From: a virus
Strand: one strand, 5' to 3'
Virus record (IMG/VR): IMGVR_UViG_3300046337_000201
Location: 1 to 64,000 of that record
Length of the DNA: 64,000 nucleotides
Shown here: piece by piece, positions 15,401 to 49,336 of the stretch
Layout of the letters: each line of letters begins with the position of its first letter
Numbering within the stretch: the stretch's first letter is position 1
Notes under the pieces: generated by a model
The model's database searches: none
What the model was told of the DNA's origin: nothing
The model's input: the letters and a program-made list of their open reading frames with translations, nothing else
Translations under genes and position numbers: made by a program

Positions 15401-16355
15401 GAATCCATCCATTGTATGAATCGTATATTACATAATTTCCTGAAGCTAAAGGATAAAACTCAGTAGCAGTAATTTGAGCAGCATTACAAATACTATCACC
15501 ACCTATGTATGTAATTGCAGCTATTGAACTACCACCTCCACTACAAACCTCACTAGAAGTAGCACCATATCTAAATAATTGAGGAAGTGTTGTTGTGGTT
15601 GTCGTACTCGTAGTTGTAGGAGCCGCAGTTGTTGTGGTTGTCGTACTCGTAGTTGTAGTTGTAGAAATAGGTGGTGTTATACTAGTTGTAGTAGTCGTAG
15701 TACTAGTTGTACTAGGACATACTAAAATAGATGATACACTACCTAAAGAATTTAATTGAACCGCTTGATTTTCTACATAATAATATTTAGTAGTATCTAC
15801 TACAATAGGAGTAGTACCTGAAGCATCAGTATAAAGTATTGTGCTTAATCCTAAAGTACCACTATAATAAACCCTAATATTATGAAGTCCACTTGTATTA
15901 GCAGCACATGCACTAGCTGCATCATTATAGCCTATAATAGAACCCACAATAGGATAATATAAAAGGCTATTAGCAATTAATAAAGTCGTTGTAGTTGTCG
16001 TAGTACTAGTTGTAGGACATACGCAAGTTTCTATTTGACCATATATGTTTATATCGTCTAATGTATATAAAAAAGTATCGGCTCCTATTGTTTGCGTACA
16101 AAAGAAACCAAAGCCTAAATTTGAAAAACCTTGTTGTAAACCTAATAAAGTACCATCATATGTATTAAGATATGTAATTCCATTAATAACGATATTCCAA
16201 CATCCACACCCTACATTTTCACTTGTAATATCCCATGTATACTTAGTTCTTGAATTGATTGAAGGATTATTTTCAGACAATAAAGGCACATCAATACTAC
16301 AATCATTGGTATTGTTGGTAATTACAAATTGGAGTAGTTCGTTTTTAGTTGGCAT
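12468..16355 (-). CDS. mucin-like Thr/Ser-rich multidomain spike or surface protein
   Basis: 1295 aa; Cys-bounded beta domains separated by poly-Thr/Ser linkers. Confidence 0.75.
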   Translation of the reverse strand: MPTKNELLQFVITNNTNDCSIDVPLLSENNPSINSRTKYTWDITSENVGCGCWNIVINGITYLNTYDGTLLGLQQGFSNLGFGFFCTQTIGADTFLYTLDDINIYGQIETCVCPTTSTTTTTTTLLIANSLLYYPIVGSIIGYNDAASACAANTSGLHNIRVYYSGTLGLSTILYTDASGTTPIVVDTTKYYYVENQAVQLNSLGSVSSILVCPSTTSTTTTTTSITPPISTTTTTSTTTTTTAAPTTTSTTTTTTLPQLFRYGATSSEVCSGGGSSIAAITYIGGDSICNAAQITATEFYPLASGNYVIYDSYNGWIQYNKPDGIGFNSMTRIGGGCSLCSSVTTTSTTTTTTTILVWYTLYNCLTGATETSAQYPNGTFFANDRVVYGGTLFFRVINVQYTDPGGIQWFVTGTGAFGCPTTTTTTTTLPPVAVSLSVSCNNVGGTYLGKVTATISGGNGVYEILAGYVGSLSTYVSAGTNPFVISSPTAPYDGTLGLRNTLGGSDQFIVQVRDSLGTVASQSTPISCITTTTTSTTTTTTTFAFNVNASLVSDYDACNNPEYTTQPLTGNGSNICDSTYVTLPSTITADMSDNQTIYLEQRVSGVFSVATYQRVGTTSIANRIVVCSACVPPSTTTTTSTTTSTSSSTTSTTTTTTTFAFNVNASLVSDYNACNAPEYTSQTLTGNGSNICDSTYVTLTPTLTADMGDNQTIYLEQRVSGVFSVATYQRVGTTSIANRIVVCSTCVPPSTTTTTSTTSTTSSTSSTTSTSSTTTTTTQPPITYSFTAVCVGLNQTFTLNSLGGGDGTTYYASTTTYPDPLSAAAGATSLVSGGTRTYSSQPNGTRYIYVTSGTRSAPPSGGTICTTTTTTSTTSTSTSSSTTSTTTTTTTFAFIVNASLVSDYNACNAPEYTSQALTGNGANICDSTYVTLTPTLTADMGDNQTIYLEQRVSGVFSVATYQRVGTTSIANRIVVCSTCVPPSTTTTTSTTSTTSSTSSTTSTSSTTTTTTQPPITYSFTAVCVGLNQTFTLNSLGGGDGTTYYASTTTYPDPLSAAAGATSLVSGGTRTYSSQPNGTRYIYVTSGTKQTTPSNGTICTTTTTTTTSSTSTTSSTTSTSSTTSTTTQPPIGYSFTAVCVGLNQTFTLNSLSGGNGTYYASTTTYADPASAAAGATSLVVGGSVTYSSQPSGTRYIYVTSGTRSAPPSGGSICTTTTTTSTTTTTTTAAPTTYKYIATDCNTSTTTIYSSTDGGLNGITIQTSSTCYSLVLTTKGTAVGSLPSYIVIAGCGFCGV
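13095..14350. repeat. near-identical tandem duplication, 699-bp period
   Basis: Identical antisense ORFs at 13269 and 13968 (offset 699); boundaries approximate. Confidence 0.85.
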
Positions 16356-16875
16356 TATTATCTTCTTTATCTACTATGTAAAAACAATAATCTTCAAAAT
16401 AATCTAATCCAACCGAGTGTTCTAACTCTTGGAAATTACTATCACCTGATATTGTTGCTCCATGATTACGCATTAGGTTTCCCAAGAATGCAGTATTAGT
16501 GTATATTTTTAGGAACAAAGTTTGACCTGGCAACATCGTAAACGATAATGAACTATTACCATTAAATGTTACTACTTCTTTTTCAGGATAGAAATACGCA
16601 GCACATTGAGCTTGATATGGGTCGATAGTAAATGGTAGTGAATGATTCACTTGATTACCAAAAGCATCAAAATCGGTATAGTAATATATTTGACCTACTT
16701 GGTCACAACTCGTAGAAGCAACATAGAAAAATTGAGCTTCATAATTAAAAGTCGTTAAACTTTGAACTATTTGGTTGTAATTAATAGGGGTTGTGGTATC
16801 ACCAAAGTCAAGAGGACACACCACCGATATATCGGCAACTGATACTTGTGTTACTATTGGTGTTAATATTGCCAT
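16345..16875 (-). CDS. capsid-protein paralogue (minor capsid or spike base)
   Basis: Shares DA.GNQ......TIDPYQ.Q and flanking pattern with 37304..37999. Confidence 0.6.
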   Translation of the reverse strand: MAILTPIVTQVSVADISVVCPLDFGDTTTPINYNQIVQSLTTFNYEAQFFYVASTSCDQVGQIYYYTDFDAFGNQVNHSLPFTIDPYQAQCAAYFYPEKEVVTFNGNSSLSFTMLPGQTLFLKIYTNTAFLGNLMRNHGATISGDSNFQELEHSVGLDYFEDYCFYIVDKEDNNAN

Positions 16876-16883
16876 TTATGATA

Positions 16884-17216
16884 CTAAGATACTTTATTGC
16901 CATTAGAATCTGCTACGAATGATTTTCCACTTCCCTTATCACTCATTACTTTTAAACCATACTCTTTCAAAAACTCACGATTCATGTCGGCTAAGAATTG
17001 AGGAGACTCCCCTGCTTTCTTTGCAGACATATAAGCTCCCATTACTAAATTTATATTCTTCTTTTGCTCTTCATCAGATTCACCACTAGCAGAAGCTTTT
17101 GTGTCAGTAGATTTATCTTCTTGTTTTACATCAATAGGTTTTATCTTGGTAAAAGCCCAATAAATGAATAATCCACCTAAAGATATTAATATTGCTTTTT
17201 TTAAATTAGTGTTCAT
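16884..17216 (-). CDS. membrane protein, N-terminal TM
   Basis: AILISLGGLFIYWAF. Confidence 0.7.
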   Translation of the reverse strand: MNTNLKKAILISLGGLFIYWAFTKIKPIDVKQEDKSTDTKASASGESDEEQKKNINLVMGAYMSAKKAGESPQFLADMNREFLKEYGLKVMSDKGSGKSFVADSNGNKVS

Positions 17217-17575
17217 TTCGATTTGTTTTTAGTATAATAGTAAATTCCAATTGCAACACCAATAAAGCCAATAATCACAATAGTAGAATTTTTAATGCTA
17301 CCATAAAAATCCGATTGAAGTCTTGCCTTTTTAGATTGATTAATTGCCTCCAAAGCTTTATTAGTCTCATCAGGTGTTATTACACCTTTCTTACTAAATA
17401 AGTCATTTAATATTGATTGTAATACACTTTTGCTCGTTTGAACTAAAGAAGTATTTGCTAATTTATTACCACCACTTTTTAGTGCTTGGTTAACGCTATT
17501 TAACTCTTGATTGATTTCGTCTACTAATAGAGACTTTTTTTCAGGAGTTAATATTTGACCTTCTACTATTGCCAT
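17213..17575 (-). CDS. tail-anchored membrane protein
   Basis: C-terminal TM plus basic tail. Confidence 0.7.
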   Translation of the reverse strand: MAIVEGQILTPEKKSLLVDEINQELNSVNQALKSGGNKLANTSLVQTSKSVLQSILNDLFSKKGVITPDETNKALEAINQSKKARLQSDFYGSIKNSTIVIIGFIGVAIGIYYYTKNKSK

Positions 17576-17578
17576 TTT

Positions 17579-48112: not shown

Positions 48113-48142
48113 TTTGTTGGTTTTTTTGTATGTATAAAATTA

Positions 48143-48286
48143 CTATATTTTTTCTAATTTTTTCAAAGCATCTTCATAAGATACTGGAGTTTCATCAATT
48201 TTTTTATTTCTTTGATTTCTATAAAATAGCCAACCACCTAGTCCTATTACTAATATTGAGGTTATTATACCTAATTTCTTATTCAT
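48143..48286 (-). CDS. 47-aa membrane peptide (not in ORF track)
   Basis: MNKKLGIITSILVIGLGGWLFY... Confidence 0.65.
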   Translation of the reverse strand: MNKKLGIITSILVIGLGGWLFYRNQRNKKIDETPVSYEDALKKLEKI

Positions 48287-48296
48287 ATTAATTGAT

Positions 48297-48791
48297 TTAA
48301 TTGATTCTACCTAATTGTGCAATGTCCCTAACTGCTTCAATAATCCCTTTCATACTATTTAAGTACACAATAGGATTAGTAGTAGTGTATTTAGCTTTTG
48401 CTATCATAATTATTTGTTCTTCAGGAGTTTTAGCATTGTTTCTAGCATCTTTGTATCTATCCCCTAAAAGTACATCTATGTGAGCTTTAAAGCCTGATTG
48501 CACATCTTTGAACTTAGCAAATTTAGCTTTTGTTTTTACTTTCTTACCTTTTACGAACTCAGTAGTATCTTGTAATACATACCCAACAACTCCTGGCAAT
48601 GATGGATTGTATTTTATACCCGCAAAGTTATTGCTTCCTTCAGGGATGTATTTACCATATCCACTTTCTAAAGCAGATTGAGCCATAACCGCAGGGAAGA
48701 ATAAATTAGTTCCTTTTATGGCACTAGCTACTCCAATACCATATAGTTGGATAAATTTCTTTGTTGCGTTATATGTTGCTATTCCATACAT
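48297..48791 (-). CDS. GH73 glucosaminidase (FlgJ-like)
   Basis: AQSALESGYG, NNFAGIK, YTT. Confidence 0.85.
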   Translation of the reverse strand: MYGIATYNATKKFIQLYGIGVASAIKGTNLFFPAVMAQSALESGYGKYIPEGSNNFAGIKYNPSLPGVVGYVLQDTTEFVKGKKVKTKAKFAKFKDVQSGFKAHIDVLLGDRYKDARNNAKTPEEQIIMIAKAKYTTTNPIVYLNSMKGIIEAVRDIAQLGRIN

Positions 48792-48793
48792 AA

Positions 48794-49336
48794 TTATTTA
48801 TTTTTATTTTTTAAGTAGTAATACCCACCAATTCCTATCAAAATTAAACCAATTCCCAACGTTGTTATGTTATTTTTTATAAACTCAATTACGTTGATTT
48901 TTAAAAGTTTTGCTTTTAGTCCATTAGCGTAATTAGTAATATCACTTGTTGCTTGACTAGTACCATAAGGAGTTGAGCCATAGTACCCTCTTTTCTTTAA
49001 CTTATTGGCAAAATCATTGACATCAGTAGAGTCTTTTAATTGTTTAGGTGTAACACCTCCCATAGTAATATTATAGAGTCTTACTATTTTGTCATTAATA
49101 GAATCTTGTATTGTATTGAATTTTGCGTAATAGTTACCTTCAGGGGAAAGCGTACCTTGAACTGCATTAGGTTGACCAATAAACTTTATACCACTTGTAT
49201 TGTTATTGTTTTTAAATACGTTTGAGGTATAGTCAGCACTCTCAAAACGAGCTTGTGCCACTATTAGTTTAGCCGCTTTTGGGTTGAATCCTTGTGAGAT
49301 TGCGGTATCATATATCATTTGGTCAATACTTGCCAT
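48794..49336 (-). CDS. membrane-anchored GH73-like peptidoglycan hydrolase
   Basis: AQARFES, NNTSGIK, GYY; C-terminal TM. Confidence 0.75.
   Translation of the reverse strand: MASIDQMIYDTAISQGFNPKAAKLIVAQARFESADYTSNVFKNNNNTSGIKFIGQPNAVQGTLSPEGNYYAKFNTIQDSINDKIVRLYNITMGGVTPKQLKDSTDVNDFANKLKKRGYYGSTPYGTSQATSDITNYANGLKAKLLKINVIEFIKNNITTLGIGLILIGIGGYYYLKNKNK

What the first reader, a model, noticed from the sequence alone, without database searches (positions are those of the whole stretch)
16345..49336. Morphogenesis module of an unusually large tailless, membrane-containing Bacteroidota virus
Seen: a 274-aa ATPase with Walker A/B and an RH...Q motif, next to a beta-rich 231-aa gene with its own terminator and biased codons. 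About 30 small proteins across the late block have TM segments, many tail-anchored with a KK tail. No terminase, portal, HK97 capsid, tail tube or tape measure is visible in ~56 kb of late genes. Known: A32/P9-type FtsK-HerA ATPases, jelly-roll capsids and many small membrane proteins characterise Varidnaviria (PRD1, PM2, sphaerolipoviruses), whose prokaryotic members typically have genomes of roughly 10-35 kb. Inference: a >64-kb lineage with an internal membrane and a single jelly-roll capsid, carrying a giant-virus-like accessory load.
Basis: partly seen in the sequence, partly recalled or inferred. Interest (0 to 1): 0.92.

Follow-up and report, generated by a model that had tools for sequence, protein, structure and literature searches.

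The report
Large tailless membrane-phage assembly module
This stretch looks like the particle-building gene block of an uncultured freshwater bacterial virus that has the DNA-packaging motor, a jelly-roll coat-type protein and the many small membrane proteins typical of tailless, membrane-lined viruses, but in a genome of about 75-100 kb, roughly twice the largest such bacterial virus I could check.

Summary
The 274-aa ATPase (38386-39210, minus strand) folds confidently, and its best solved match is the STIV/STIV2 genome-packaging NTPase B204 (Z 18.2), ahead of HerA, VirB4 and Zot. The 231-aa protein just downstream has a jelly-roll-type beta-sandwich core with no close solved relative. It is the best-conserved gene, has over 1000 metagenomic homologues, and follows the ATPase gene in all 36 related loci. 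Each genome also carries one shorter paralogue of it.

About 22 of 55 genes in the block have membrane segments, 11 of them tail-anchored with basic ends. A zincin protease and a PAP2 phosphatase are conserved core genes.

No terminase, portal, HK97 capsid or protein-primed polymerase was found in the 75-kb contig, in 79-102-kb relatives, or in a bounded 43-kb provirus in a Raineya (Bacteroidota) genome.

Two related lineages have inverted terminal repeats.

Corrections: codon bias was not confirmed, and about 22-25 genes, not 30, have membrane segments.

Capsid role, membrane and taillessness are still inferences. This scan has already found the same lineage on other DNA.

The parts
38386..39210 (-). 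274-aa FtsK-HerA-type ATPase, B204/A32-like; probable genome-packaging motor
   Evidence: Motifs are. The AF2 model has pLDDT 89. The best solved match is STIV/STIV2 B204: E 5e-9 and Z 18.2. Of 26 homologues, 17 hit Pfam DUF87/HerA. The gene is present in all 36 related loci.
38054..38161 (-). 35-aa ORF with one membrane segment, in the spacer between the ATPase and capsid genes
   Evidence: Read directly (MDFKKIAGQLLIVAGGVALYMLVAKPLLDKAKIGA). Not tested further.
37304..37999 (-). 231-aa single-jelly-roll protein; probable major capsid protein, with a variable acidic N-terminal arm of about 50 residues
   Evidence: The AF2 model has pLDDT 82 and a core above 90. There are 1047 homologues, the top 120 being 78-95% identical, and 528 clusters at 50% identity. 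The gene lies downstream of the ATPase in 36 of 36 loci.
37223..37267 (-). terminator-like hairpin plus T7 run after the capsid gene
   Evidence: Read directly. The consensus scan did not find it.
36787..37197 (-). 136-aa tail-anchored membrane protein, core gene
   Evidence: Membrane segment at residues 117-131 and C-terminal ..IMIKK. Homologues are present in 13/13 close and 22/22 distant loci.
30937..36782 (-). run of 12 small membrane-protein genes, interrupted only by the zincin gene (33228-34034, listed separately): 30937, 31425, 32070, 32696, 34036, 34317, 34624, 35073, 35314, 35746, 36033
   Evidence: Membrane segments are. Genes 30937, 34317 and 35073 are conserved in distant loci.
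33228..34034 (-). 268-aa HExxH zincin-type metalloprotease, core gene; possible virion maturation protease
   Evidence: HEFSH at residue 189. H189, E190, H193, E203, E205 and D207 are invariant in 18 homologues. It is conserved in G003 and in the Raineya provirus. It has no Pfam or PDB sequence match.
39502..40650 (-). 382-aa conserved protein directly upstream of the ATPase operon; function unknown, with low-complexity and basic ends
   Evidence: Conserved in 13/13 close and 20/22 distant loci and in the Raineya provirus. A profile search against PDB sequences found nothing.
42196..42843 (-). 215-aa PAP2-family (lipid) phosphatase, core gene
   Evidence: Pfam PAP2 at 1.7e-9 in the all-protein scan. 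PSGH..SR..H..D motifs are visible. Conserved in 12/13 close and 19/22 distant loci.
16345..16875 (-). 176-aa shorter paralogue of the jelly-roll protein; candidate vertex (penton) or second capsid protein. It overlaps the start of the 1295-aa gene by 11 nt.
   Evidence: The capsid-family HMM matches at E 1.2e-12. One such paralogue is present in each of G000, G002, G003, G005 and G007.
12468..16355 (-). 1295-aa Ser/Thr-rich protein following the small jelly-roll gene; candidate spike (lies outside the finding's range)
   Evidence: ORF. No Pfam family matched. G003 has a 5338-aa ORF in the corresponding region.
24074..30209 (-). four paralogous Gly-rich beta-roll fibre-like proteins (421, 514, 451 and 628 aa)
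   Evidence: Weak LbR_Ice_bind beta-roll hits in all four. They share N- and C-terminal sequences. They are not conserved in relatives; G003 has collagen-repeat proteins instead.
16884..19173 (-). further small membrane proteins (16884, 17213, 17579, 18440, 18895) and a 166-aa protein (17940-18440) that matches PHROGs labelled tail fibre
   Evidence: Membrane segments are. The 166-aa protein hits phrog_12032 at 4.3e-31 and phrog_24280 at 1.6e-17.
46267..49336 (-). cell-wall hydrolases: a GH108 lysozyme (46267-46794) and two glucosaminidase-domain proteins (48297-48791, and 48794-49336, which is tail-anchored), with small membrane proteins between them
   Evidence: Pfam Glyco_hydro_108, PG_binding_3 and Glucosaminidase in two members. 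PHROG endolysin hits.
19244..23595 (-). accessory genes inside the block: APS-kinase-like, cytidylyltransferase-like, sulfotransferase, a GT9-like gene, and two GIY-YIG homing endonucleases (two more lie at 41492-42196 and 44421-45155)
   Evidence: Pfam and PHROG hits.

Best explanation
The block 16345-49336 is the virion-assembly module of an uncultured freshwater virus lineage that most likely builds tailless, membrane-lined particles.

Proposed mechanism:
- The 231-aa single-jelly-roll protein is the main shell protein.
- It assembles around a lipid vesicle loaded with about 20 small viral membrane proteins, many inserted as tail anchors.
- The shorter jelly-roll paralogue, together with the 1295-aa protein encoded next to it, forms the vertices and spikes. 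The variable fibre paralogues bind the host.
- The conserved zincin may trim virion proteins. The conserved PAP2 phosphatase may act on lipid.
- The B204/A32-like ATPase then pumps the linear genome into the preformed particle. In relatives that genome is 79-102 kb with inverted terminal repeats.

What is shown here: the ATPase's fold and its nearest structural relatives; the jelly-roll-type fold, conservation and gene position of the shell candidate; the enrichment and conservation of membrane proteins; the absence of detectable tailed-phage hallmark genes; and the terminal inverted repeats in two related lineages.

What is inferred: the capsid role, the internal membrane, taillessness, the vertex assignment, and the roles of the protease and the phosphatase.
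For: ATPase:
- AF2 pLDDT 89, pTM 0.85.
- By Foldseek the first 15 rows are all STIV/STIV2 B204 (E 5e-9 to 4e-7, TM on the target 0.62-0.67). HerA follows at 3e-6 and the Zot N-domain at 6e-6.
- By VIA-align, B204 scores Z 18.2, rmsd 2.6 A, with 187 of about 205 residues aligned. HerA scores 16.0, VirB4 14.7 and FtsK 11.8.
- Of 26 homologues, 17 hit Pfam DUF87/HerA (best 9e-8).

Shell candidate:
- The core has pLDDT above 90.
- The top structural matches are jelly rolls: PR772 and PRD1 penton P31, the PM2 P1 base, CPMV, STMV and GFLV capsids, and faustovirus, PBCV-1 and adenovirus capsid domains.
- It is the most conserved gene. It has 1047 homologues, with a closest homologue 95% identical against 91% for the ATPase, and 528 clusters at 50% identity.
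- It lies downstream of the ATPase in all 36 related loci, 0.3-0.8 kb away in 35 of them.
- Each of five genomes has one canonical copy plus one short paralogue.

Membrane proteins:
- About 22 of 55 genes in the block have membrane segments, against 5 of 41 elsewhere in the window.
- The trait is conserved: 21 of 40 genes in the G003 blocks and 19 of 31 in the Raineya provirus late block.
- Four membrane proteins, the zincin and the PAP2 phosphatase are core genes.

No tailed-phage hallmarks:
- Terminase_6N, TerL_ATPase, Phage_capsid and Phage_portal are absent from G000-G003 and G005; Terminase_6N and Phage_capsid are also absent from G007.
- The large ORFs of the 84-kb G003 are glycosyltransferases, methyltransferases, collagen-like and polyvalent proteins.
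- In the bounded Raineya provirus the only 'terminase' signal is a sub-threshold P-loop match to its own B204-like ATPase.

Genome ends:
- G003 has a perfect 127-bp inverted terminal repeat. G004, identical in sequence wherever their fetched ends overlap, runs 362 nt further out.
- G002 has a 114-bp inverted repeat with 791 nt beyond it.
- The terminal regions are non-coding and C-poor (6-14% C) in three lineages, including the right end of this contig.

GenBank: no phage record matches either protein.
Against: - The jelly-roll match is generic. The best Z is 5.7, which the tool says is common. TNF/C1q-like fibre heads and nucleoplasmin score about as well, and no known major capsid protein stands out.
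- The same domain occurs in extra paralogues in G007, including a fused double copy, while the canonical gene is retained. The fold is therefore not used only for the shell.
- HerA-type ATPases score only about 2 Z units below B204.
- HMM-negative results cannot exclude very divergent HK97, portal or terminase proteins. I could fold only two proteins.
- Fibre-like genes, and one 166-aa protein matching PHROGs labelled tail fibre, are present.
- This contig is incomplete at its left end and shows no inverted repeat of its own.
- There is no particle, lipid or proteome evidence.
Confidence: 0.7

Rival explanations
1. It is a tailed phage (Caudoviricetes) whose capsid, portal and terminase are too divergent for Pfam and PHROG models. 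On this reading the small ATPase has another role, the jelly-roll protein is a fibre head or decoration protein, and the membrane proteins serve lysis or exclusion.
For: Fibre-like paralogues and a protein matching 'tail fibre' PHROGs are present. Jelly-roll domains are common in phage fibres, and several top matches are fibre or tail proteins (Kp7 gp52, Pa223 tail). Automatic labels for relatives read Uroviricota. Several conserved proteins of 290-550 aa remain unassigned.
Against: TerL is normally detectable even in very divergent tailed phages. It is absent from six related records and from a bounded provirus. No portal or HK97 family was found. Fibre heads are usually the least conserved genes, whereas this protein is the most conserved and is locked to the ATPase gene. 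Inverted rather than direct terminal repeats do not fit the usual terminase packaging. About 20 membrane proteins in the structural block is far more than lysis needs.
Confidence: 0.12
2. It is a virus with the same ATPase and jelly-roll protein but a different, non-icosahedral or externally enveloped architecture. The jelly-roll protein would be a matrix, nucleocapsid or turret protein rather than an icosahedral shell protein.
For: There is no specific match to any known major capsid protein. The membrane-protein load is very large, and glycosylation and sulfation genes, collagen-like proteins and giant proteins are present. A32/B204-type ATPases also occur in non-icosahedral viruses (general knowledge).
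Against: The combination of a small FtsK-HerA ATPase, a neighbouring jelly-roll gene and many small membrane proteins is the known signature of icosahedral internal-membrane viruses (established for PRD1, PM2, STIV and sphaerolipoviruses). One long plus one short jelly-roll paralogue per genome fits a shell-plus-vertex arrangement.
Confidence: 0.13
3. It is not a virus but another mobile element, such as a conjugative or secretion-type island, whose HerA/VirB4-like ATPase moves DNA across membranes.
For: HerA, VirB4 and TcpA are good structural matches (Z 12-16). Zot and TrwB Pfam hits appear in some homologues. The block encodes many membrane proteins.
Against: No relaxase or type IV secretion families appear in the all-protein scans. 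Endolysins, fibres, RecT and replication-initiator genes, homing endonucleases and linear 79-102-kb contigs with terminal repeats fit a lytic virus. B204 is the top match and covers its whole chain.
Confidence: 0.03

Closest known systems
STIV / STIV2 (Turriviridae) genome-packaging NTPase B204, and the wider A32/P9-type packaging ATPases of the PRD1-adenovirus lineage
   Same: Both are small single-domain FtsK-HerA-type ATPases with Walker A and B motifs and an R..G..Q motif. B204 is the best structural match and covers its whole chain (Z 18.2, rmsd 2.6 A). In both cases the gene sits in the morphogenesis module beside the capsid gene.
   Different: Sequence identity is only 16-19%, with no match by sequence search against PDB. 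This protein has an extra helical C-terminal part of about 55 residues. The host is bacterial rather than archaeal. The genome is 4-5 times larger; that comparison rests on my own recollection of STIV as under 20 kb.
Sphaerolipoviridae / Simuloviridae / Matshushitaviridae (P23-77, SH1, HCIV-1; kingdom Helvetiavirae)
   Same: These are tailless viruses with an internal membrane, major capsid proteins that each have a single jelly roll, and an A32-like ATPase encoded next to them. Like them, this lineage has two jelly-roll paralogues per genome.
   Different: Their hallmark block is ATPase, small capsid gene, large capsid gene in a row. Here the second paralogue lies 21 kb away. Their capsid proteins did not appear among the structural matches. 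Their genomes are 16-31 kb (PMC12642351 gives 16-19 kb for Simuloviridae; the rest is from general knowledge), against 79-102 kb here.
Tectiviridae (PRD1, PR772) and Corticoviridae (PM2)
   Same: They share an internal membrane carrying many small viral membrane proteins and a vertex built from a single-jelly-roll penton plus a spike. PR772 and PRD1 P31 and the PM2 P1 base are among the best matches to the jelly-roll model (Z 5.7, 4.4 and 4.7). PRD1 also has a linear genome with inverted terminal repeats.
   Different: Their major capsid protein is a double jelly roll; here it is single. No protein-primed DNA polymerase was found. Their genomes are 10-15 kb (general knowledge).
Salisaeta icosahedral phage 1 (SSIP-1, JN880423)
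   Same: It is the largest cultured tailless membrane-containing bacterial virus I could check: 43,788 bp, infecting a Salisaeta strain. It resembles this lineage in lifestyle and in carrying a very large structural protein.
   Different: No homology is detectable to the ATPase or capsid profiles (best E 0.14 and 1.8). Only the GH108 lysin (2e-8) matches, plus one large structural protein that matches the Raineya provirus (1.5e-17). Its genome is circular and about half the size.

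Membership tests
FtsK-HerA superfamily, viral A32/B204-type packaging ATPase | Walker A and Walker B motifs | tested here: met
   GKKGVGKS and LLLIED are present, and their key residues are invariant in 26 homologues.
FtsK-HerA superfamily, viral A32/B204-type packaging ATPase | Conserved R..G....Q segment after the Walker B strand (arginine and sensor region typical of FtsK, HerA and VirB4) | tested here: met
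   In TNRHxGLDIILxYQSxGR, residues R137, H138, D142, Q148, G151 and R152 are invariant. Assigning these residues to specific roles is inference.
FtsK-HerA superfamily, viral A32/B204-type packaging ATPase | Fold closest to a known viral packaging ATPase rather than to cellular or conjugative members | tested here: met
   B204 scores Z 18.2 against HerA 16.0, VirB4 14.7 and FtsK 11.8. By Foldseek, B204 scores 5e-9 against HerA 3e-6 and Zot 6e-6. The margin is moderate.
FtsK-HerA superfamily, viral A32/B204-type packaging ATPase | ATP-driven packaging of the genome into procapsids | not testable with these tools
   This needs biochemistry or genetics.
Jelly-roll capsid viruses (Varidnaviria / Helvetiavirae) | Major capsid protein with an eight-stranded jelly-roll fold | tested here: inconclusive
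   The AF2 core is a beta sandwich whose best matches are jelly rolls. However, Z is 5.7 or below, I could not trace strand order, and the capsid role itself is inferred.
Jelly-roll capsid viruses (Varidnaviria / Helvetiavirae) | Double jelly roll in one chain (kingdom Bamfordvirae) | tested here: not met
   The canonical protein has one domain. A fused double copy exists only as an extra paralogue in G007.
Jelly-roll capsid viruses (Varidnaviria / Helvetiavirae) | Helvetiavirae hallmark block: ATPase, small capsid gene and large capsid gene adjacent | tested here: not met
   Only one jelly-roll gene follows the ATPase. The second lies 21 kb away.
Jelly-roll capsid viruses (Varidnaviria / Helvetiavirae) | Internal lipid membrane with viral membrane proteins | not testable with these tools
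   The support is indirect: about 22 of 55 genes have membrane segments, the trait is conserved in relatives, and a PAP2 phosphatase is a core gene.
Caudoviricetes (tailed phages) | Large terminase, portal and HK97-fold capsid protein | tested here: not met
   No match to PF03237, PF03354, PF04860 or PF05065 in G000-G003 and G005. No match to PF03237 or PF05065 in G007 or the Raineya provirus. Nothing appears in the Pfam and PHROG scans of all ORFs. Very divergent forms are not excluded.
Tectiviridae | Protein-primed family B DNA polymerase with short inverted terminal repeats | tested here: not met
   PF03175 is absent from G000-G004. Inverted terminal repeats are present in G003/G004 and G002, but are at least 489 and at least 905 bp long if the outer sequence is also repeated.

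The most novel reading that the evidence does not exclude
This would be a widespread, undescribed, family-or-higher-level lineage of 'large' tailless membrane-containing phages of freshwater Bacteroidota. Its features would be:
- genomes of 75-100 kb that are linear, with long inverted terminal repeats and no protein-primed polymerase;
- a shell built from a single-jelly-roll protein unrelated in sequence to any known capsid protein;
- a jelly-roll domain that has duplicated and even fused within the lineage, giving a living example of the step from single to double jelly roll;
- a glycosylated, giant-virus-like surface.
Probability: 0.3. Interest if true: 0.92.

Novelty: new variant of a known kind. 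Interest (0 to 1): 0.8.

Why it matters
Known tailless, membrane-lined viruses of bacteria and archaea are small. The largest cultured bacterial one I could check, SSIP-1, is 43.8 kb. That has suggested this architecture limits genome size outside eukaryotic giant viruses.

A common freshwater lineage would show that the size limit is not intrinsic. The capsid family has over 1000 homologues in 528 clusters at 50% identity. The lineage combines the same packaging motor, a jelly-roll protein and a membrane-protein load with genomes of 79-102 kb.

It would add a large group that current pipelines label as tailed phages. It would also give a bacterial model for how jelly-roll capsids scale up, and for how jelly-roll domains duplicate and fuse.

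It also offers a concrete target for isolation: freshwater Bacteroidota hosts, chloroform-sensitive plaques.

Tried and rejected
- **Family scans of the two key proteins.** PHROG and Pfam scans of the ATPase and the capsid candidate found no family.
- **GenBank phages.** tblastn of both proteins against 50,697 GenBank phage records gave no match.
- **PDB by sequence.** The ATPase gave only a weak HerA Walker-A match (E 0.01). Profiles of the 382-aa protein and of the zincin gave nothing.
- **SSIP-1 as a relative.** Rejected: the ATPase and capsid profiles do not match it.
- **Fused double-jelly-roll proteins as replacements for the capsid gene.** Rejected: the 102-kb G007 that encodes one also keeps the canonical 231-aa-type gene.
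- **The 127-bp repeat of G003 as the full terminal repeat.** Rejected: G004, identical wherever their fetched ends overlap, runs 362 nt further out. 127 is also a common assembler word length (my knowledge), so the repeat is probably longer.
- **An inverted repeat between this contig's own ends.** None found. None in G001, G005 or G007 either; each of these breaks off within coding sequence at one or both ends.
- **Codon bias of the capsid gene.** Not seen.
- **Protein-primed polymerase.** Not found.
- **ESM Atlas.** It holds the zincin and the 543-aa protein but has no models. The only leads were DUF4344 peptidase at 0.86 and DUF7192.
- **Sequencing runs.** No RNA holder was listed.
- **Laying contigs on the right end.** Word depth falls over the last 700 bases or so in three runs, and one contig runs 92 nt past the end. 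This does not settle where the genome ends.
- **Sample of 401 Bacteroidota genomes.** One further genome (G046), besides the Raineya genome already found, carries the ATPase and jelly-roll pair. I ran no control phylum because such counts would not be informative.
- **Literature.** Three full-text searches found no description of such a lineage.

Full report
**Setting.** The window is bases 1-64000 of a 75,160-bp IMG/VR virus record that is linear and rated 67% complete by CheckV. GC content is about 30%. Plus-strand genes at 109-7852 include a RecT-like annealing protein, an exonuclease and replication-initiator domains. From 7812 to the end of the record almost everything is on the minus strand. 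Only 4 of 96 genes have a Shine-Dalgarno-like core upstream, against 2.5 expected by chance. There is no tRNA gene. Runs that hold the sequence are freshwater metagenomes.

**The ATPase.** ORF 38386-39210 (-) encodes 274 aa with GKKGVGKS, LLLIED and TNRHIGLDIILSYQSLGR. The key residues are invariant across 26 homologues that go down to 51% identity.
- Neither Pfam nor PHROGs name the window's own copy. Of 26 homologues, 17 hit DUF87 (HerA central domain, best 9e-8) and 11 hit Zot more weakly (2.7e-4).
- The AF2 model is confident: pLDDT 89, pTM 0.85.
- In Foldseek against the PDB, the first 15 rows are all the genome-packaging NTPase B204 of STIV and STIV2 (E 5e-9 to 4e-7). HerA follows at 3e-6 and the Zot N-domain at 6e-6.
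- In VIA-align, B204 scores Z 18.2 at 2.6 A over 187 residues, essentially the whole B204 chain. HerA scores 16.0, DndH-C 15.8, VirB4 14.7 and FtsK 11.8.
- The protein is therefore a small FtsK-HerA ATPase whose nearest solved relative is a packaging enzyme of a tailless, membrane-containing virus. The margin over cellular HerA is moderate.

**The capsid candidate.** ORF 37304-37999 (-) encodes 231 aa.
- It has 1047 homologues in the 90%-clustered collection, the first 120 being 78-95% identical and nearly all 230-237 aa long. It has 528 clusters at 50% identity. No GenBank phage matches it.
- With a 66-sequence alignment, AF2 gives pLDDT 82. The N-terminal 50 residues or so are disordered, variable and acidic. 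The core (55-220) has pLDDT above 90 and is nearly all strands.
- The matches are jelly rolls throughout. By Foldseek they are the CPMV small subunit, STMV, picornavirus VP3, TNF and nucleoplasmin, at E about 1e-3. By the Foldseek-independent search they are the PR772 penton P31 (Z 5.7), GFLV, SPMV, faustovirus and PBCV-1 capsid domains, phiCjT23, the PM2 P1 base (4.7) and PRD1 P31 (4.4). The second look gave the same picture. BFVD gave only weak C1q- and capsid-like hits.
- These Z values are in the range the tool calls common. I read the fold as a jelly-roll-type sandwich with no close solved relative, not as proof of a capsid protein.

**Arguments for a capsid role.** They are contextual.
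- It is the best-conserved gene: its closest homologue is 95% identical, against 91% for the ATPase, and it is 46% identical to its distant G003 counterpart.
- It follows the ATPase in all 36 related loci, within 0.3-0.8 kb in 35 of them.
- It is set off by a 386-bp spacer and a hairpin plus T7.
- Every genome examined has exactly one canonical copy plus one shorter paralogue of 149-181 aa. Here that is 16345-16875, with an HMM E of 1.2e-12.
- The short paralogue sits directly before the 1295-aa Ser/Thr-rich protein, a layout that recalls penton plus spike.

**A correction to my own first idea.** Proteins with two tandem copies of the domain exist. The 102-kb relative G007 that encodes one also keeps the canonical gene and has three further copies. 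The fused form is therefore an extra paralogue and not a double-jelly-roll replacement of the capsid protein.

**Membrane proteins and other core genes.**
- A hydropathy scan finds membrane-like segments in 25 of 55 ORFs of the block. That is about 22 after discounting two fibre paralogues and the capsid candidate. Elsewhere in the window the count is 5 of 41. Eleven are tail-anchored with basic ends and about as many have an N-terminal anchor.
- The trait is conserved: 21 of 40 ORFs in the matching blocks of G003 and 19 of 31 in the late block of the Raineya provirus.
- G003's ATPase is only 51% identical to this one. The genes conserved between the two genomes and across 35 loci are the 382-aa protein, the ATPase, the capsid candidate, the tail-anchored 136-aa protein next to it, three further small membrane proteins, an HExxH zincin with invariant H189/E190/H193 and E203/E205/D207, and a PAP2-family phosphatase.
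- A lipid-phosphatase-type enzyme and a protease as core morphogenesis genes fit a membrane-containing particle that matures by cleavage. That is inference.

**No tailed-phage hallmarks.**
- Pfam and PHROG scans of all 116 ORFs of the record list no terminase, portal, capsid, tail tube or tape measure. Only the 25 best families are shown per scan, so I added further single-protein scans.
- Six-frame HMM searches for Terminase_6N, TerL_ATPase, Phage_capsid and Phage_portal found nothing in G000-G003 and G005, three of which are rated at least 90% complete. The controls did detect these families.
- G007 has neither Terminase_6N nor Phage_capsid.
- The large ORFs of G003 are glycosyltransferase/methyltransferase fusions, collagen-repeat proteins, a winged-helix repeat protein and polyvalent-type proteins.
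- The only tail-labelled hits are weak ones in 56889-57992 and a 166-aa protein (17940-18440) that matches two small PHROGs annotated as fibre proteins. Fibres are compatible with spikes on a tailless particle.

**Relatives, size and ends.**
- Thirty-one IMG/VR loci encode the ATPase. Four of the contigs are 84.2-84.7 kb and one is 79.4 kb; a further relative is 102 kb.
- G003 (84,420 bp) is classed as having inverted terminal repeats and as 100% complete. Its ends are a perfect 127-bp inverted repeat.
- G004's fetched ends match G003 at 100% identity. It runs 362 nt beyond G003's left end and stops 77 nt short of its right end. The repeat is therefore probably at least 489 bp, and the 127 bp is probably an assembly overlap.
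- In the separate lineage G002, the first 114 bp are the inverted copy of a segment 791 bp from the other end.
- The outermost regions are non-coding and strongly C-poor when read inward from the end. C is 6% in this contig's right end, 9% in G002 and 14% in G004.
- This contig shows no repeat between its own ends, and its left end is in early genes. It is therefore truncated there.
- No protein-primed polymerase was found. The window does encode a small resolvase-type nuclease (41104-41508, PHROG 'Holliday junction resolvase'). How the ends replicate is open.

**Host.** The scan of species genomes found five contigs.
- Four are short contigs in bins of unrelated phyla and tell nothing.
- The fifth lies inside a 590-kb scaffold of a Raineya sp. 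MAG (Bacteroidota). It carries the same order of genes: 382-aa homologue, ATPase, jelly-roll protein, membrane proteins, zincin and GH108 lysin.
- That element is about 43 kb. An integrase next to tRNA-Leu marks one side, with housekeeping genes (dihydrolipoyl dehydrogenase-like, DEAD-box helicase-like, dUTPase-like, by my reading of their N-termini) beyond it. A divergently oriented regulator-like gene and unrelated genes lie on the other side.
- A sample of 401 Bacteroidota genomes gave one more chromosome with an ATPase and jelly-roll pair.
- Distant relatives therefore infect Bacteroidota as temperate viruses. For the window's own lineage the host is inferred from this, from the lack of Shine-Dalgarno sites and from the low GC.

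**Comparison with known viruses.**
- The nearest solved relative of any part is B204 of the Turriviridae.
- By architecture the closest groups are the single-jelly-roll, membrane-containing Helvetiavirae and the PRD1/PM2 group.
- The defining gene block of the former (two adjacent capsid genes) and the double jelly roll and protein-primed polymerase of the latter were tested and not met.
- SSIP-1 is the largest cultured tailless membrane phage I could check (43,788 bp, circular). It shares no detectable ATPase or capsid homology.
- Three literature searches found no description of such a lineage. I cannot exclude one in papers outside the library.
- Earlier agents of this scan reached the same reading on other genomes of the lineage. 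I took the SSIP-1 comparison from them and tested it here.

**Verdict.** What would change it is a fold-level survey of all genes, or any particle data. I rate it a new variant of a known kind, with high interest.

Noticed in passing
L034:1-127 and L038:4294-4420 (G003 ends); L039:1-489 (G004); L043:1-114 and L044:2096-3000 (G002); L002:11320-12160 (= G000 74320-75160): Two related lineages have inverted terminal repeats. The outermost 0.5-1.3 kb is non-coding and strongly C-poor when read inward from the end. The contig holding this window has the same kind of region at its right end only. Word depth in three runs falls over the last 700 bases or so.
   Followed up: partly
L052+L051+L053 (G006:C1:462511-523170), element at about 467,700-511,200: A provirus of about 43 kb sits in a Raineya sp. 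(Bacteroidota) scaffold. It has an integrase next to tRNA-Leu(CAA), the same ATPase / jelly-roll / zincin / GH108 order, and 19 of 31 late ORFs with membrane segments. A second Bacteroidota chromosome carries an ATPase and jelly-roll pair (G046:C1:2766906-2770373, L058).
   Followed up: partly
G007 (IMGVR_UViG_3300002835_000070, 102,228 bp): 6659-7171, 14612-15109, 17384-18406, 59233-59916, 97331-97660: One relative carries six jelly-roll domains of this family in five genes. They include a 397-aa protein with two tandem copies, next to a GT4 glycosyltransferase. The left end of this contig lies in a TnpB-like gene.
   Followed up: partly
L036:11961 to L037:7977 (G003 51961-67977): G003 has a single 5338-aa ORF in the place where this window has the fibre paralogues and the 1295-aa protein. 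Collagen-repeat proteins lie nearby in G003 (44423-45307 and 16658-18088).
   Followed up: no
window 31425-44405 (six proteins) and 25386-30209 (fibre repeats): The motif [FYM]-x-[NS]-[AF]-x-G occurs 12 times in 10 proteins, against 2.5 +/- 1.7 in shuffles (maximum 9 in 300). Six hits are in the capsid candidate (FFSADG at residue 38, where A41 is nearly invariant in the family) and in five membrane-anchored proteins. It could be a shared processing or targeting signal for the conserved zincin. The pattern was chosen after the fact.
   Followed up: partly
window 17940-18440 (-): A 166-aa protein among the membrane-protein genes matches two small PHROGs labelled 'short tail fibre' (4.3e-31) and 'tail fibre adhesin' (1.6e-17). 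It also matches Pfam T4_baseplate, but only below threshold.
   Followed up: partly
window 43293-44405 (-): A 370-aa tail-anchored protein has poly-Thr/Ser tracts and Cys-rich repeats. It gives a whole-protein Pfam hit to the chitin-binding peritrophin-A domain (CBM_14, 7e-7, with no single stretch passing). It is conserved only in close relatives.
   Followed up: no
window 49340-61390 (-): A block of 'polyvalent protein' type modules (DUF2958, DUF5661, ART-PolyVal, DUF3846) lies beside a well-conserved pair: a MoxR-type AAA+ ATPase (57% identical in G003) and a 543-aa protein (Atlas lead DUF7192).
   Followed up: partly
window 21221-21979, 22861-23595, 41492-42196, 44421-45155, 50963-51511 (-): Four GIY-YIG/NUMOD-type homing endonuclease genes and one HNH/NUMOD4-type gene are scattered through the late block. 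Most are absent from relatives.
   Followed up: no
window 7812-11866, 19244-22851, 61659-62906; L002:1346-2711: There are many glycan-modifying genes: GT2, GT4, GT9-like, GT25, FkbM and other methyltransferases, a sulfotransferase, an APS-kinase-like gene and a cytidylyltransferase-like gene. G003 has fused GT/methyltransferase proteins of 587-716 aa.
   Followed up: no
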